DNA from: a virus
Taxonomy: Duplodnaviria > Heunggongvirae > Uroviricota > Caudoviricetes
DNA length: 46,250 nt
Virus record (IMG/VR): IMGVR_UViG_2718218453_000004
Direction: 5' to 3' (one strand)
The notes beneath the pieces were generated by a model. The model saw only the letters and a list, made by a program, of their open reading frames with translations, ran no database searches and was not told where the DNA came from. This document shows positions 8,170 through 11,497 of the stretch, piece after piece (position 1 is the first letter of the stretch; each line of letters opens with the position of its first letter). The position numbers and the translations under genes are program-made.

Positions 8170-8571
8170 GTGGCAAAAGTTTTTACACAAGAAGAGCGGG
8201 AAAAAATTAAAGGGCAGGTGGTGGAACTCGTGCGCCAGAGCGGTCGTGAGACGTTACGGCAACTGGAAGCTAAAACAGGTGCGACTAGATATCTGATGAG
8301 CGTTCTTGCCAGAGAGCTGGTAGCCAGTGGCGATGTATACAACTCCGGCTACGGGTTATTCCCGTCTGAACAGGCGCGTAAGGACTGGCAAAACGCCCGC
8401 AAAAAACTCTCGAGGGCAAAGGTGAAGAAAACAGCTGTGGTTGATCCGGACGTTATCTGGTCGTTACCTGATGGAGAAATACGTCGCTACGACAGTCGCC
8501 TAAACATAATCTGTCGCGAGTGCCGGATGAGTGAAGTTATGCAGCGCATACTGGCATTTTATCAGGGATAA
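8170..8571 (+). CDS. Hypothetical protein (133 aa)
   Basis: ORF following the replication gene; basic, no motif recognised. Confidence 0.55.
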   Translation: MAKVFTQEEREKIKGQVVELVRQSGRETLRQLEAKTGATRYLMSVLARELVASGDVYNSGYGLFPSEQARKDWQNARKKLSRAKVKKTAVVDPDVIWSLPDGEIRRYDSRLNIICRECRMSEVMQRILAFYQG

Positions 8572-8668
8572 TGTTAGGTATTTTAGACGTTACTAGATTA
8601 AAAAGCATTAGTTCAGGAGTGAATTGACATTCTCATTTTTCATGGCACAGGGTAGATCTGGCGTGGTT

Positions 8669-8692
8669 GTCCGCTTTGTGCCAAAAGCGGAC
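8669..8692. terminator. Hairpin between convergent genes (gtccgcttt-N6-aaagcggac)
   Basis: Perfect 9-bp inverted repeat between the rightward 133-aa gene and the leftward 595-aa gene. No clear U-tract, so terminator function is uncertain. Confidence 0.3.
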
Positions 8693-8789
8693 ATCGAATA
8701 ATTTCAGCAGCACTCAACCTTATTAACCAAATCGCCTCAACTCATATGGACATGCATCCGGAAGTGCCAACTTCGTAAACTTATTCACT

Positions 8790-10577
8790 TTAAGTCTGAG
8801 CCTCACTCTCTTGGCCATAAGTGGCTTGCCAGTATCTCGCCGTAGGGTTCATTAGAATGTGCAATACAAGCCACCATGCAAAAATGCAGGGAGGTTGATT
8901 GTAGTAACCGGCAGGCACATATCCGTGAGCTAGTTGATTTCGTAAATCACCATAGATTTTATCTACCAGTAAGGCCTGAAGATTGCCAATTATGTCTACG
9001 CCGAAAGCTTCAATAATCAGTGGATTATCTAGTAATCCCTTGAGTCCATTTCGCTCTTGCGAACCGTCCCCGTGAAGCTGCGATGGTTCCTCACCTTTAA
9101 TTTTAGCCACATATCTCAGACTATTTTCGAGCTGGGGAATCAACACGTGGCATGCCGTCATAAAATCTCCATTGAAACCGCAAACCATACCCTTGATGAA
9201 AAACTCTTCATGCCCAAACGGGATGAAGGGATGATTGATGAACATATCGCGAAAAAACGCCTCCGAGATTGGATATTTCATTGTGATCTCATCTGTAGCA
9301 GGAATAATTTGCCCAGCTACTGCCAACTCATGGTCGATACGCATTCTCGTCATCATTATGGGCCAAATAACTGCCCCATTTGCATCATCAATCCCCAATC
9401 CTGCGGGTATGCGAGCAAGTGTCATTCCCTCATGATCAATATGTGTTGATCCAAACATCCAAGCTATGCTGTTGGCCTTTTGTTCTATTGCTTGAGCCTT
9501 AAGTCTCTCAATGCTGGTTGGCCGACAGACCAGCATCGCAAGTCTGAAAACCATATCAAACAAATCTCTTCCGACTACCCGACTCTTGGCTTGATGGACA
9601 ATCTCACTAATATCTTGAGGGGGAGACTGAAGGATAGACATCTGGTGACGGGATTCGATTTGGTAATCACGCATTTCTTCATACAGCGCAAGACGTTCTA
9701 TTCGGGTTCCTGGAATATTAGCCAGTGCTTCAATAGCATTCTGCATGCAGGCTGCCGAAATCATACCGCCATCTTGGAATTTTGACTCTTCCAGATGTGT
9801 ATCGGCAAGAAGCCGCCAGAATTCAAACTGTGTATCTCTGTCACAGCACCTATTCGCAATCGGGATTGCGGTTTTACAGGCATCGACGGCAAATGAAAAT
9901 AATTTTTGAGCCAGATAGTTTTTTGTCAGAAACAGGAGTTCCTGGGCAATAAAAGATGGCTCACTCACTTTACAGTCGATATCGAGTTGCAGGAGTCGCA
10001 GCGGATAAGGTGAATCGCCTTGTTCTCTGGTACGTTCATACTCTGCTAGTAGATGTGCCGAAAGCTGATCAAATTCATCCCTGAAATCAGTATGCTTTCG
10101 AAAAAAACAACACAGCCTAAGCGCACGCTCTAGGCGTTCTAAAGCACTAACCCACGTCCCTTGCGATGTCATAATAGCTATACTGGACGCATAATAAGCA
10201 CGGACTGCCAGCAAAGGAAAACGGATTCCACCAATTTTACGAACCCAAAGTGTATCAGCAATACGAGCTTGAAGTTCGGGTAGCTCTATCGTCGGGCAAA
10301 ATTGAGAAAGTACCTCCAGCGACAACCCGTTAATGTCATCCGGAATTGCAGATCTACCTTGGCTGCTTTGAAAGCACGGACCAAATGGTACCTGTGGATT
10401 TTCGGGACGAAAGTGAAAACCGCAAATATGGGTTAGCAGTCTTATCTCCGCTCTTCCATCACCTAGGCTAGAAAGATACTTTGTGATATCAAAGCAGGTA
10501 ACTGGCAGCTTACTCTGGATTAAGGGGGATAAATCAATAGTGTTAAGTTCGTCGAGGCTGATATTAATATCGTCCAT
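8790..10577 (-). CDS. Large accessory protein with C-terminal HEPN-like RNase motif (R-x4-H-x-Y); candidate abortive-infection/defence effector
   Basis: 595-aa ORF on the opposite strand to the surrounding rightward operon. RNQLAHGY near the C-terminus (encoded at 8925..8942) fits the HEPN/HepT-type Rx4-6H motif. Visibly AT-richer than flanking genes (by eye, not computed). Occupies the slot where K-12 Qin has relBE beside hok. Confidence 0.6.
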   Translation of the reverse strand: MDDINISLDELNTIDLSPLIQSKLPVTCFDITKYLSSLGDGRAEIRLLTHICGFHFRPENPQVPFGPCFQSSQGRSAIPDDINGLSLEVLSQFCPTIELPELQARIADTLWVRKIGGIRFPLLAVRAYYASSIAIMTSQGTWVSALERLERALRLCCFFRKHTDFRDEFDQLSAHLLAEYERTREQGDSPYPLRLLQLDIDCKVSEPSFIAQELLFLTKNYLAQKLFSFAVDACKTAIPIANRCCDRDTQFEFWRLLADTHLEESKFQDGGMISAACMQNAIEALANIPGTRIERLALYEEMRDYQIESRHQMSILQSPPQDISEIVHQAKSRVVGRDLFDMVFRLAMLVCRPTSIERLKAQAIEQKANSIAWMFGSTHIDHEGMTLARIPAGLGIDDANGAVIWPIMMTRMRIDHELAVAGQIIPATDEITMKYPISEAFFRDMFINHPFIPFGHEEFFIKGMVCGFNGDFMTACHVLIPQLENSLRYVAKIKGEEPSQLHGDGSQERNGLKGLLDNPLIIEAFGVDIIGNLQALLVDKIYGDLRNQLAHGYVPAGYYNQPPCIFAWWLVLHILMNPTARYWQATYGQESEAQT

Positions 10578-10950
10578 GTCGTCACCTTGATGATTTGTTA
10601 ATGCGGGGGCAACATTAATAAATGTACTTGAGACCGCAATTTGTCGATGGAGCCAACATTTATAACTATGTGCTTCTACCCTCTGAATTTTTACATGTGA
10701 ATTGCTAGCTTGAATAGCTCTATCATTATATACGTGGCACTAAATTATGGCTGTTTTTCGCTCAAAGCGGACTAGAAGGTTAGCTTGTGTCGGACTTTGC
10801 GTATTAAAAGAAGTGCTGGTGGTGACTAGTGGTTGTGCCCCATTTCCACAGAAAAAATCAGAGAAACTATACCCAATAGTTGTATTGAATCACTGACGAG
10901 ACAGCCTCATATTCATCAGGACTGGTCTACGTCCAATACAGGAGGTTGTG

Positions 10951-11040
10951 GTGCTGGTTCTCAAATGTGCGCTGGCTATTACGGCTGTAATGGCGATTTA
11001 TTGTCTTGCTATTGTTCTTATGGATCGCCTTTCTGACTGA
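10951..11040 (+). CDS. Candidate 29-aa hydrophobic peptide (type I toxin-like or leader peptide)
   Basis: AGGAGG at 10940-10945, 5-nt spacer, GTG start. Translation (M)LVLKCALAITAVMAIYCLAIVLMDRLSD is one predicted transmembrane helix with a charged tail. +1 frame relative to the TTG-start 67-aa ORF-track entry. Confidence 0.3.
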   Translation: MLVLKCALAITAVMAIYCLAIVLMDRLSD

Positions 11041-11251
11041 TTTCACATTGGCGAGGTAACGGTAGTTAAGTAGAATGGCTGCGGGTGCTTGAGGCTATCT
11101 GCCTCGGGCATGAACACCAACGGCAGATAGAGAAAAGCCCCAGTTAACATTACGCGTCCTGCAAGACGCTTAACATTAATCTGAGGCCAATTTCATGCTA
11201 GACATATGTAGGTTAGCCTCTTACGTGCCGAAAGGCAAGGAGAAGCAGGCT

Positions 11252-11407
11252 ATGAAGCAGCAAAAGGCGATGTTAATCGCCCTGATCGTCATCTGTTTAA
11301 CCGTCATAGTGACGGCACTGGTAACGAGGAAAGACCTCTGCGAGGTACGAATCCGAACCGGCCAGACGGAGGTCGCTGTCTTCACAGCTTACGAACCTGA
11401 GGAGTAA
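11252..11407 (+). CDS. hokD: Hok/Gef-family type I toxin (51 aa)
   Basis: MKQQKAMLIALIVICLTVIVTALVTRKDLCEVRIRTGQTEVAVFTAYEPEE matches the Hok family and RelF/HokD as recalled. SD AAGGAG upstream. An in-frame upstream ATG (11195) gives the 70-aa ORF-track entry (mok-like). Confidence 0.9.
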   Translation: MKQQKAMLIALIVICLTVIVTALVTRKDLCEVRIRTGQTEVAVFTAYEPEE

Positions 11408-11475
11408 GAAACCCGGCGAGGGAGAAATCCCTCGCCACCTCTGATGTGGCAGGCATCCTCAACGCACCCGCACTT

Positions 11476-11497
11476 AACCCGCTTCGGCGGGTTTTTG
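11476..11497 (+). terminator. Rho-independent terminator downstream of hok
   Basis: aacccgc-ttcg-gcgggtt hairpin followed by a T-run. Confidence 0.7.

What the first reader, a model, noticed from the sequence alone, without database searches (positions are those of the whole stretch)
10940..11040. Shine-Dalgarno-supported 29-aa hydrophobic peptide ORF next to the defence candidate
A consensus AGGAGG with 5-nt spacing precedes a GTG-initiated ORF encoding (M)LVLKCALAITAVMAIYCLAIVLMDRLSD. That is a single predicted transmembrane helix with a short charged tail, the architecture of type I toxins (TisB/Ldr/ZorO-like) or a regulatory leader peptide. It lies in the promoter-proximal region of the 595-aa gene and upstream of hok, so it could be a second membrane toxin or a partner of the HEPN protein.
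Basis: seen in the sequence. Interest (0 to 1): 0.55.

Follow-up and report, generated by a model that had tools for sequence, protein, structure and literature searches.

The report
Conserved 29-aa prophage membrane peptide gene
The 29-codon reading frame is a real, evolutionarily constrained gene for a tiny single-helix membrane protein carried by many Escherichia prophages just upstream of the hok toxin gene, but nothing supports it being a toxin or a partner of the neighbouring 595-aa defence candidate, and its function is still unknown.

Summary
AGGAGG (10940-10945), a 5-nt spacer, GTG (10951) and TGA (11038-11040) encode (M)LVLKCALAITAVMAIYCLAIVLMDRLSD.

In one sequence this is not beyond chance. 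Comparison with related loci shows it is coding:
- The ORF frame has 23 synonymous, 18 nonsynonymous and 0 stop substitution events. The permutation mean is 11.8 synonymous, and 0 of 20000 permutations reach 23.
- Pairwise dN/dS between diverged alleles is 0.09-0.43.
- The start codon switches between GTG and ATG, and the only indels are whole codons.

The segment occurs in about 1900 of 5426 complete E. coli genomes. The family has at least three clades, all in Escherichia/Shigella. All occupy one prophage slot: DUF977 gene, variable cargo, small ORF, hok.

The O157:H7 Sakai homologue (XECs145, now ECs_5710) gave strong RIBOseq signal in a published study. A TTGAAT-17-CATATT promoter is conserved upstream of clade 1.

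The peptide is not tied to the 595-aa gene: 129 loci show 51 different cargo types. hok does not need it, and it stays under purifying selection in a lineage without hok. I found no antisense promoter, no structured leader, no attenuator and no similarity to a known toxin.

Best reading: an autonomous small inner-membrane protein gene of unknown function. It is a new member of a known kind, of moderate interest.

The parts
10885..10913 (+). Predicted sigma-70 promoter of the small ORF: -35 TTGAAT (10885-10890), 17-nt spacer, -10 CATATT (10908-10913). Predicted transcription start near 10920.
   Evidence: My own scan scores it 8 of 12. Both hexamers and the 17-nt spacing are kept in four to five upstream sequence classes whose spacers and flanks are otherwise diverged. 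The 37-nt distance from the -10 to the GTG is constant. It is lost or mutated in some loci: BL21, L085 and L139. This is a prediction only; no TSS data exist for this allele.
10940..10945 (+). Shine-Dalgarno AGGAGG, 5 nt before the GTG.
   Evidence: It is kept as AGGAGG, GGGAGG or AGGAGA in nearly all relatives, with AGAAGA in one locus.
10951..11040 (+). Small ORF: GTG start, 29 codons plus TGA, encoding (M)LVLKCALAITAVMAIYCLAIVLMDRLSD. Predicted single-pass inner-membrane helix.
   Evidence: Translation. Coding signature: 23 synonymous, 18 nonsynonymous and 0 stop events, against 6-10 synonymous in four of the other five frames. 24 of the 41 events fall at third codon positions, and 0 of 20000 permutations reach 23 synonymous. 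NG86 dN/dS is 0.09-0.43 between diverged alleles. The start switches GTG to ATG and there is a one-codon deletion in L192/L233; L356 has a one-codon insertion. Helix. The exact peptide is deposited as a hypothetical protein (OSK45992.1, EGI50483.1).
10758..10884 (.). Conserved non-coding block between the cargo junction and the small-ORF promoter, shared by clade-1 'class A' loci whatever the cargo. Role unknown.
   Evidence: Homology with mEp460, Evi, Tritos and many E. coli genomes begins at window 10755-10758. It contains 1-nt indels, so it is not coding. The 9-mer TCGCTCAAA marks its left edge in 109 of 159 loci.
11048..11076 (+). Context: hok promoter (TTGGCG-17-TAGAAT), starting 8 nt after the small-ORF stop. 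hok mRNA +1 is at 11083.
   Evidence: Promoter scan. Rfam RF01794 (sok/hok leader) matches 11083-11257 at 112.7 bits, E = 1.6e-26. hok +1 lies at position 43 after the stop in 136 of 149 clade-1 loci.

Best explanation
Window 10951-11040 is a bona fide protein-coding gene for a 29-residue single-helix inner-membrane peptide. It belongs to a small, Escherichia/Shigella-restricted prophage family with at least three clades.

In this allele it forms a compact unit of about 170 bp: a sigma-70-like promoter (10885-10913), a leader of about 30 nt, a consensus SD and a GTG start. No terminator separates it from the hok promoter. The unit sits at the right-hand edge of a hypervariable cargo slot (DUF977 gene, cargo, small ORF, hok/sok, rem, DUF968, Q) in Qin/mEp460-like lambdoid prophages.

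What the data show: the ORF is under purifying selection at the protein level, it is independent of the cargo gene, and neither it nor hok requires the other.

What is inferred: the peptide is made in the lysogen, as its Sakai homologue is. It inserts as one transmembrane helix and acts within the membrane through its conserved C-terminal half (AIYCL..VLMDRL). The likeliest mode is as a small modulator or binding partner of another membrane component, not as a constitutively lethal toxin. The molecular target is unknown.
For: Coding:
- Across 51 unique clade-1 variants there are 41 substitution events: 23 synonymous, 18 nonsynonymous and 0 stop in this frame. Four of the other five frames have 6-10 synonymous. 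The antisense frame that shares wobble positions has 19, but it is not open across the ORF.
- The permutation mean is 11.8 +/- 2.4 synonymous, and 0 of 20000 permutations reach 23.
- dN/dS is 0.09-0.43 between diverged alleles and clades.
- The start codon interchanges GTG and ATG in both clades.
- Indels inside the ORF are whole codons, while the flanking leader has 1-nt indels.

Distribution:
- The segment has at least 80% coverage in 1895 of 5426 complete E. coli genomes.
- Clade 2 is in 640 genomes.
- All database homologues are Escherichia, and the genome scan also finds Shigella.

Translation of a homologue:
- The clade-2 ORF is XECs145 of Hucker et al. 2017.
- In LB, RNA RPKM was 79.1, RIBOseq RPKM 346.1, ribosomal coverage value 4.35 and coverage 0.99.
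- That study predicted it as inner membrane with one TM (PMC5597208 S2/S3/S8 tables).
- It is now annotated ECs_5710.

Membrane helix: Hessa sum -2.8 kcal/mol; AlphaFold2 helix over residues 2-29, pLDDT 93.

Promoter: the -35 and -10 hexamers and their spacing are conserved across diverged upstream classes.

Independence:
- 51 cargo clusters occur among 129 loci.
- hok is intact in essentially all of the 31 scored loci where cargo insertion truncated the small ORF.
- 12 of 149 clade-1 loci lack hok. Two diverged no-hok lineages (L112 and L185/L234) differ at dS 0.57 but dN 0.05, giving dN/dS 0.09.
Against: - There is no expression or translation evidence for this allele. The RIBOseq data concern a homologue sharing about 57% identity over 23 residues, in a strain whose lambdoid prophages carry repeated sequence (4-5 matches to the query per O157:H7 chromosome), so reads may multi-map.
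- The promoter scores only 8 of 12 and is unverified. Clade 2 and the P0036-type allele show no comparable promoter.
- The IMG/VR variant sets were retrieved with exact-match patterns lying inside or next to the ORF. This suppresses variation in those stretches and allowed two third-position wildcards. Removing those two events leaves 21 synonymous against 18 nonsynonymous.
- Related prophages are not independent samples.
- The gene is dispensable, since cargo insertions erode it in about a quarter of the junction-anchored sample. One sub-lineage has an Arg in the middle of the helix.
- The 'modulator, not toxin' part is inference from context only.
Confidence: 0.7

Rival explanations
1. It is linked to hok in function. 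Either it acts in cis, with transcription or translation of the small ORF running into the hok promoter 8 nt downstream and so setting hok mRNA levels or 5' ends. Or the peptide modulates Hok in the membrane.
For: The adjacency is striking and is kept across clades that are only about 50-60% identical in protein. hok +1 lies at position 43 after the stop in 136 of 149 clade-1 loci, and 75-82 nt after it in 107 of 113 clade-2 loci. The P0036-type allele has the same arrangement. No terminator lies between the ORF and the hok promoter.
Against: hok keeps its own promoter and a complete sok/mok leader. hok stays intact where cargo insertion has truncated the small ORF. Most hok copies have no such ORF, for example 933W and plasmid copies. 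The small ORF remains under strong purifying selection in lineages without hok (dN/dS 0.09). The spacing and spacer sequence between ORF and hok differ between clades. Because the cargo hot spot lies to the left of the ORF, simple linkage can explain the adjacency.
Confidence: 0.13
2. It is a second membrane toxin of the type I kind (TisB/Ldr/ZorO-like), kept in check by an RNA not yet recognised.
For: The size, the single hydrophobic helix and the short charged tail fit the general look of such toxins. It lies in a prophage accessory region next to a known type I locus.
Against: No promoter-like site of at least 8 of 12 lies on the minus strand within or after the ORF. The module shared between hok-linked and hok-less loci ends about 15 nt after the stop, leaving no room for a conserved antitoxin gene. 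The ORF shares no repeat with the Sok target, and Rfam finds nothing besides sok. The predicted leader is short, and folding is not better than shuffles (z = -0.93 sense, -0.12 antisense). The SD is consensus, and the Sakai homologue is heavily translated in growing cells (RCV 4.35). This is the opposite of the silenced translation typical of type I toxins. No Pfam, NCBIfam, PHROG or PADLOC match was found, and there is no similarity to Hok. The tail is net acidic.
Confidence: 0.1
3. It is a partner or accessory of the divergently oriented 595-aa DUF7380/DUF4209 (HEPN-like) defence candidate.
For: Only proximity: the ORF lies 370 nt from the gene's start, on the opposite strand.
Against: The cargo to the left of the ORF falls into 51 unrelated clusters among 129 loci, and the DUF4209 type accounts for 7. 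The query including the cargo flank is in 151 genomes, against 1895 for the ORF segment. Homology with other phages starts at 10758, between the two genes. The 595-aa protein matches PADLOC PDC-S39, a single-gene candidate. BL21 has the ORF and no cargo at all.
Confidence: 0.02
4. It is a chance ORF or a decaying remnant with no present function, and the sequence is conserved for another reason, such as a recombination anchor or an RNA or DNA element.
For: ORFs of this size and SD-like motifs are common by chance. The homology break points are staggered through the ORF in about a quarter of junction-anchored loci. A hairpin at 10975-10994 scored as terminator-like.
Against: An RNA or DNA element does not predict three-base periodicity of substitutions, an excess of synonymous changes only in this frame, codon-sized indels, or start-codon interchange. 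Folding energies are unremarkable. A homologue is ribosome-covered.
Confidence: 0.04

Closest known systems
XECs145 / ECs_5710 of E. coli O157:H7 Sakai prophage Sp6 (RefSeq WP_001278450.1), a RIBOseq-detected 'novel small gene' (Hucker et al. 2017, PLoS One 12:e0184119)
   Same: It belongs to the same family: a profile search gave E about 1e-12. It shares the core ALA..AV..(V/I)YCL..(V)..LMDRL. It occupies the same syntenic slot, between the DUF977 gene plus cargo and hok, in the same prophage backbone. It is predicted to be a single-TM inner-membrane peptide.
   Different: It is 34 aa with an acidic N-terminal extension (MSDDISLAME). It shares about 57% identity over the 23 aligned residues and has Gly where this peptide has Cys6. 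It starts with ATG and lies directly after a DUF551 gene and another small hydrophobic ORF, with no evident promoter of its own. A palindrome-containing spacer puts hok +1 at 75-82 nt after the stop, compared with 43 here.
RefSeq WP_000960667.1 'MULTISPECIES: hypothetical protein [Enterobacteriaceae]' (29 aa); the exact-sequence GenBank entries are OSK45992.1 and EGI50483.1
   Same: It is the same clade with the same start codon, and differs at 2 of 29 residues (T11V, V22I). The exact window peptide is itself deposited as a hypothetical protein.
   Different: These are database placeholders with no family, name or function. PGAP leaves the ORF unannotated in most genomes, including the 100%-identical source-like genome NZ_CP042899.1.
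Hok/Gef family type I toxins (Pfam PF01848), the immediate downstream neighbour
   Same: Both are small prophage-encoded peptides with one transmembrane helix containing a Cys-Leu pair, and they are adjacent on the same strand.
   Different: There is no detectable sequence similarity and no PF01848 match. The small ORF lacks the periplasmic C-terminal domain, the mok-type overlapping frame, the long folded mRNA and the Sok-type antisense RNA.
TisB, ZorO and Ldr type I toxins (comparison from general knowledge)
   Same: Length of about 29-35 aa and a single hydrophobic helix.
   Different: No antisense or divergent small-RNA gene was found, the predicted leader is short and unstructured, the SD is strong, and a homologue is efficiently translated. 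The tail is net acidic, whereas those toxins have basic tails. No homology was found.
Small inner-membrane proteins of E. coli under 50 aa that bind and modulate larger membrane proteins, such as AcrZ, MgtS and MgrB (general knowledge; resemblance only)
   Same: It has the same size class and single TM helix, the residues of the helix are conserved, and a homologue is translated during normal growth.
   Different: No homology was found and no partner is known. It is prophage-borne and restricted to Escherichia and Shigella. Function was not tested.

Membership tests
Type I toxin-antitoxin toxin (TisB/Ldr/ZorO/Hok-like) | Small hydrophobic peptide with one transmembrane helix | tested here: met
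   GRAVY 1.74 and Hessa sum -2.8 kcal/mol; AlphaFold2 helix over residues 2-29 with pLDDT 93.
Type I toxin-antitoxin toxin (TisB/Ldr/ZorO/Hok-like) | Adjacent or overlapping antisense (or divergent) small-RNA antitoxin gene conserved with the toxin | tested here: not met
   No minus-strand promoter-like site of at least 8 of 12 lies within or after the ORF. The conserved module ends about 15 nt after the stop. There is no Rfam hit other than sok and no repeat shared with the Sok target. A trans-encoded RNA elsewhere in the genome cannot be excluded.
Type I toxin-antitoxin toxin (TisB/Ldr/ZorO/Hok-like) | Translation held off by a long structured 5' UTR or a sequestered SD | tested here: not met
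   The predicted leader is about 30 nt with a consensus SD, and the fold z-score is -0.93. The Sakai homologue has a ribosomal coverage value of 4.35 in LB.
Type I toxin-antitoxin toxin (TisB/Ldr/ZorO/Hok-like) | Sequence membership of a described toxin family | tested here: not met
   No Pfam, NCBIfam, PHROG or PADLOC match even at permissive E-values. BLASTP against the neighbouring Hok found no alignment.
Type I toxin-antitoxin toxin (TisB/Ldr/ZorO/Hok-like) | Growth arrest or membrane damage on expression | not testable with these tools
   This needs inducible expression with a start-codon-mutant control.
Regulatory leader peptide / attenuator uORF | ORF lies inside the 5' leader of the regulated mRNA and is followed by alternative terminator/antiterminator structures | tested here: not met
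   hok mRNA starts at 11083 from its own promoter, which begins 8 nt after the ORF stop. There is no terminator between them and no significant structure.
Regulatory leader peptide / attenuator uORF | Obligate linkage to the regulated downstream gene | tested here: not met
   12 of 149 clade-1 loci and 3 of 113 clade-2 loci have no hok within 1.5 kb. dN/dS is 0.09 between two no-hok lineages.
Two-gene defence system with the 595-aa DUF7380/DUF4209 (PDC-S39) protein | Consistent co-occurrence of the two genes | tested here: not met
   7 of 129 loci have this cargo, among 51 cargo clusters. The counts are 151 against 1895 genomes. PDC-S39 is catalogued as a single-gene candidate.
Bona fide bacterial small protein (50 aa or fewer) gene | Conserved start codon and ribosome-binding site | tested here: met
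   GTG 10951 is kept, or replaced by ATG. An SD of AGGAGG, GGGAGG or AGGAGA is kept across classes.
Bona fide bacterial small protein (50 aa or fewer) gene | Purifying selection on the encoded amino acids | tested here: met
   23 synonymous, 18 nonsynonymous and 0 stop events, with 0 of 20000 permutations reaching 23. dN/dS is 0.09-0.43 for diverged pairs.
Bona fide bacterial small protein (50 aa or fewer) gene | Direct evidence of translation | tested here: inconclusive
   Published RIBOseq covers the clade-2 homologue only (XECs145). There are no data for this allele.
Prophage 'moron' (autonomous accessory transcription unit) | Own promoter, active in the lysogen | tested here: inconclusive
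   TTGAAT-17-CATATT is conserved across diverged upstream classes but scores only 8 of 12 and is unverified. The homologue is transcribed in uninduced Sakai (RNA RPKM 79-121).
Prophage 'moron' (autonomous accessory transcription unit) | Own terminator | tested here: not met
   No intrinsic terminator lies between the stop (11040) and the hok promoter (11048).

The most novel reading that the evidence does not exclude
The peptide family could be a working part of the prophage's accessory region and not a bystander. One possibility is a membrane-embedded factor that acts with hok/sok, for example by tuning Hok-mediated abortive infection or by delivering read-through hok transcripts to the membrane. 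Another is a new, unusually small superinfection-exclusion or envelope-modifying protein. A function of that kind could be why the gene keeps its place beside hok while the cargo to its left changes.
Probability: 0.15. Interest if true: 0.6.

Novelty: new member of a known kind. Interest (0 to 1): 0.36.

Why it matters
About a third of complete E. coli genomes carry this gene, and a further 640 genomes carry its EHEC-type relative. Standard annotation usually skips it and no function is known. It is therefore a well-supported addition to the under-annotated small-membrane-protein set of a major pathogen and laboratory species; BL21(DE3) has an allele.

The gene also marks the fixed right-hand border of a highly variable cargo and defence slot in Qin/mEp460-like prophages. 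That makes it a useful landmark for mining defence genes.

Its conserved position immediately upstream of hok/sok raises a testable question about whether the two interact. The result also removes a tempting but wrong inference, that the peptide is a partner of the DUF4209/PDC-S39 candidate.

Tried and rejected
- RNA-element reading. Folding of 10920-11047 on either strand is no better than shuffles (z = -0.93 and -0.12). The terminator-like hairpin at 10975-10994 tolerates changes mostly as G-U wobbles but is weakened in L185, and it cannot explain codon periodicity.
- Antisense gene. The 39-aa minus-strand ORF 10927-11046, annotated in phage HannyBb as CDS0048/0049, has 8 synonymous, 31 nonsynonymous and 2 stop events, so I rejected it.
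- Longer upstream in-frame ORF. The ORF 10747-10896 is separated from the small ORF by a single TGA and is fused to it in a few database entries. The upstream block carries 1-nt indels, and the stop is present in nearly all loci, so I rejected it.
- Earlier start at GTG 10948. It is not conserved.
- Hok paralogy. BLASTP finds no alignment and there is no PF01848 hit.
- Lipoprotein. 'LVLKC' has Lys at -1 and only 5 preceding residues, so it is not a lipobox (read directly from the sequence).
- LexA or other operator in the promoter. Nothing convincing was found by eye.
- Anti-Hok immunity. hok is intact where the small ORF is truncated.
- Searches that found nothing: the peptide strings and WP accessions in the paper library; a hokD/prophage/hotspot/defense literature search; P0036/P0039-type alleles in IMG/VR and JGI metagenomes.
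- The GTDB-wide degenerate-pattern scan gave true hits only in Escherichia and Shigella, plus three short MAG contigs that look like E. coli phage DNA.
- The inverted repeat between the promoter spacer (10899-10909) and the hok 5' end is not conserved in other classes, so I judged it chance.
Full report
**Setting**

The window matches an E. coli chromosome at 100% identity over this region (NZ_CP042899.1). It is part of a Qin/mEp460-like lambdoid prophage. RefSeq annotation of the matching genome gives this gene order:
- dicC-like, ydaT-like, a hypothetical gene and a DUF977 gene on the plus strand;
- a 595-aa DUF4209 gene on the minus strand (window 8790-10577);
- hokD, rem, a hypothetical gene, ydfU (DUF968) and an antiterminator Q gene.

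Nothing is annotated in the 623-nt gap between the 595-aa gene and hok.

Rfam places the hok mRNA leader and sok region at 11083-11257 (RF01794, 112.7 bits). The hok promoter is TTGGCG-17-TAGAAT at 11048-11076.

**The observation**

AGGAGG lies at 10940-10945, followed by a 5-nt spacer, GTG at 10951 and TGA at 11038-11040. The product is (M)LVLKCALAITAVMAIYCLAIVLMDRLSD. The ORF ends 8 nt before the hok -35 element.

As a single-sequence pattern this is not unusual. The SD-plus-start motif occurs 8 times in the window against 5.0 expected, and short ORFs are everywhere. The case therefore rests on comparison with related loci.

**Comparative evidence for coding**

The 128-nt segment around the ORF is present at 80% coverage or more in 1895 of 5426 complete E. 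coli genomes. It is also in phages mEp460_ev081, Evi, Tritos and HannyBb.

I retrieved about 210 IMG/VR prophage loci with three exact-pattern scans anchored in different parts of the region and aligned them. Among 51 unique full-length variants I counted 41 distinct substitution events in codons 2-29.
- The ORF frame has 23 synonymous, 18 nonsynonymous and 0 stop events.
- The other two forward frames have 10/26/5 and 6/35/0.
- The reverse frames have 8/31/2 and 8/27/6. The frame that shares wobble positions has 19/21/1, but it is not open across the ORF.
- By codon position the 41 events split 24 third, 10 first and 7 second.
- I re-dealt the same base changes over sites with the same reference base. 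This gave 11.8 +/- 2.4 synonymous, and 0 of 20000 permutations reached 23.

Nei-Gojobori dN/dS between diverged alleles is 0.09-0.43.

Several features match what a start codon and a reading frame predict:
- GTG 10951 is kept everywhere, whereas the upstream GTG 10948 is not.
- One sub-lineage (L192, L233) has ATG at that position plus a one-codon deletion.
- Another allele (L356) has a one-codon insertion.
- A clade-2 variant switches ATG to GTG.
- The leader just upstream carries 1-nt indels.

Caveats: the retrieval patterns suppress variation where they lie and allowed two third-position wildcards. Dropping those two events leaves 21 synonymous against 18 nonsynonymous. The prophages are related, so I counted events once per site and allele.

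**The family**

A profile search of 1.84 billion representative proteins, and a second search of the 5.8-billion-protein set, found only Escherichia proteins. They are variously labelled 'hypothetical protein', 'membrane protein' or 'putative membrane protein'.

The exact window peptide is deposited as OSK45992.1 and EGI50483.1. RefSeq WP_000960667.1 is a 2-residue variant that uses the same start codon.

No Pfam, NCBIfam, PHROG or PADLOC model matches.

A degenerate-codon scan of one genome per GTDB species gave true hits only in E. albertii, E. ruysiae and Shigella flexneri, plus three short MAG contigs that resemble E. coli phage DNA.

The family has at least three clades:
- Clade 1 is the window type, 29 aa.
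- The P0036 type is 30 aa: MLAALKGFVAILAVVAIYCLVVVLMDRLSD.
- Clade 2 is 34 aa: MSDDISLAMEGALAVIAVVGVYCLVVFLMDRLGN. It is common in O157:H7 and O104:H4 and is present in 640 genomes.

The shared core is A..AV..(I/V)YCL..V.LMDRL. Many of the invariant residues are encoded by different codons in the different clades.

**Published translation evidence**

The clade-2 ORF is 'XECs145' in the RIBOseq study of E. coli O157:H7 Sakai (Hucker et al. 2017, PMC5597208).
- In LB: RNA RPKM 79.1, RIBOseq RPKM 346.1, ribosomal coverage value 4.35, coverage 0.99.
- In BHI: 121.3, 150.1, 1.14 and 0.84.
- Under cold/osmotic stress: RIBOseq RPKM 1.1.

That study predicted an inner-membrane protein with one TM, and its classifier called it 'real'. 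The study used an N-terminally extended ORF. The current Sakai RefSeq annotates the 34-aa version as ECs_5710 in prophage Sp6, between a DUF551 gene and the mok/hok locus.

This is evidence for a homologue, not for the window allele. Reads in repeated prophage DNA may also multi-map.

**Anatomy of the window allele**

Upstream of the SD, a -35 TTGAAT (10885-10890) and a -10 CATATT (10908-10913) are separated by 17 nt. They are kept in four to five upstream sequence classes whose spacers and flanks have otherwise diverged. The distance from the -10 to the GTG is a constant 37 nt. My scan scores the pair 8 of 12.

This predicts a transcription start near 10920 and a leader of about 30 nt.

There is no terminator before the hok promoter, so read-through into hok is possible.

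The unit shared between hok-linked and hok-less loci runs from the promoter to about 15 nt past the stop.

The peptide is predicted to be one helix (Hessa sum -2.8 kcal/mol; AlphaFold2 residues 2-29, pLDDT 93). Lys5 lies on one side and the net-acidic tail DRLSD on the other.

**Relation to the 595-aa gene**

Homology with other phages begins at window 10755-10758, between the 595-aa gene and the small ORF.

Among 129 loci with an intact small ORF and enough upstream sequence, the 1.7 kb to its left falls into 51 unrelated clusters. The window's DUF4209 type accounts for 7 loci, counting the window itself and the source-like genome. Other cargo includes:
- an ABC-three-component system;
- QueH;
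- a DUF4145 gene;
- Ead/Ea22 plus ORF6N;
- DUF551;
- nothing at all in BL21(DE3), where the DUF977 gene overlaps the small-ORF start and the promoter is gone.

The 595-aa protein is Pfam DUF7380 plus DUF4209 and matches PADLOC PDC-S39, a single-gene candidate. The 'partner' idea is therefore not supported.

**Relation to hok**

The adjacency is conserved. hok +1 lies at position 43 after the stop in 136 of 149 informative clade-1 loci, and 75-82 nt after it in 107 of 113 clade-2 loci. The P0036-type allele has the same arrangement.

Several facts argue against dependence in either direction:
- hok has its own promoter and a full regulatory leader.
- In about a quarter of junction-anchored loci, cargo insertion has removed the 5' part of the small ORF at staggered points. 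In essentially all 31 such loci that I scored, hok is still intact.
- Most hok copies in E. coli have no such ORF.
- 12 clade-1 loci have the ORF but no hok or sok.
- Two diverged no-hok lineages differ at dS 0.57 but dN 0.05. The peptide is therefore maintained without hok.

Because the variable slot lies to the left of the ORF, plain linkage explains most of the adjacency. A cis effect on hok transcription cannot be excluded.

**Toxin and leader-peptide readings**

No promoter-like site occurs on the minus strand within or after the ORF. The ORF shares no repeat with the Sok target, no RNA family other than sok is detected, and neither strand folds better than shuffles.

The leader is short and the SD is consensus. 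The homologue is among the better-translated small ORFs in growing Sakai cells. This is the opposite of the translational silencing typical of type I toxins.

There is no attenuator, and the amino-acid sequence itself is under constraint. This does not fit a simple leader peptide.

**Conclusion**

Its proposed links to the 595-aa protein and to the type I toxin class are not supported.

The best-supported account is an autonomous gene for a small inner-membrane protein, kept next to hok in Escherichia lambdoid prophages at the border of a cargo hot spot.

I infer, but have not shown, that it acts in the membrane through its conserved helix and the MDRL boundary motif as a modulator, not as a killer.

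It is already in databases as an unnamed hypothetical protein, and one clade has appeared in a RIBOseq catalogue. This makes it a new, better-defined member of a known kind, and of moderate interest.

Noticed in passing
window 8572-10757 (slot between the DUF977 gene 8170-8571 and the conserved block starting at 10758); also L230, L231, L233, L234, L355, L356: This slot is a hypervariable cargo hot spot. It holds 51 unrelated sequence clusters among 129 loci. Contents seen: PDC-S39 (DUF7380+DUF4209), an ABC-three-component system with DUF2326, QueH, DUF4145, Ead/Ea22+ORF6N and DUF551. BL21(DE3) has nothing there.
   Followed up: partly
window 10758-10766 (TCGCTCAAA): This 9-mer sits at the left edge of the conserved block, about 194 nt before the GTG. 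It is present in 109 of 159 loci and 31 of 51 cargo clusters. In L233 it is one arm of a 9-bp inverted repeat (TCGCTCAAA...TTTGAGCGA). It may be a junction or boundary motif of the cargo slot.
   Followed up: partly
L237, L236, L248 (clade-2 loci), about 110 nt upstream of the 34-aa ORF; the same sequence is in Sakai Sp6 (L357, about 2040-2125): There is a second, unannotated small hydrophobic ORF (27 aa, MIWPEAFAITGVAIAIDFLVYVICRWG). It has its own AGGAGG, and its ATG overlaps the DUF551 stop (ATGA). L248 has a 25-aa variant with an in-frame deletion, which suggests it is also coding.
   Followed up: no
L237/L236 (clade-2 loci), between the 34-aa ORF stop and the hok -35: A perfect palindrome, CGATATGGGAATTCCCATATCG, occupies the spacer and is absent from the window's clade. 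Its function is unknown; it could be a protein-binding site or a hairpin.
   Followed up: no
window 11416-11497: A sub-threshold Rfam match to isrK, a Salmonella Gifsy-prophage sRNA: 25.7 bits against a gathering score of 50. It covers the hok 3' hairpin and the terminator at 11476-11493. It is probably just generic hairpin-plus-terminator similarity.
   Followed up: no
L001 (phage HannyBb) 2454-2743, minus strand; equivalent to window 10927-11046 minus: The deposited annotation calls two minus-strand hypothetical CDSs over the small-ORF region. In the comparative data that frame has 8 synonymous, 31 nonsynonymous and 2 stop events, so these are probably miscalls of the plus-strand gene.
   Followed up: yes
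L230 (BL21-Gold(DE3)) 2193-2602: In BL21 the DUF977 gene runs straight into the small-ORF region and overlaps its first 40 nt. There is no cargo and no small-ORF promoter, so the BL21 allele could only be expressed from the early rightward operon.
   Followed up: partly
window 10753-10725 (minus strand): CAGCCA-17-TATAAT, a promoter-like site pointing toward the 595-aa gene, lies inside the cargo block. It is a candidate promoter for the PDC-S39 gene itself.
   Followed up: no
L106 6521-6707: A hok-less prophage that carries the small ORF has a full-length Rfam STnc100 sRNA match (86.6 bits) further downstream in its nin-like region.
   Followed up: no
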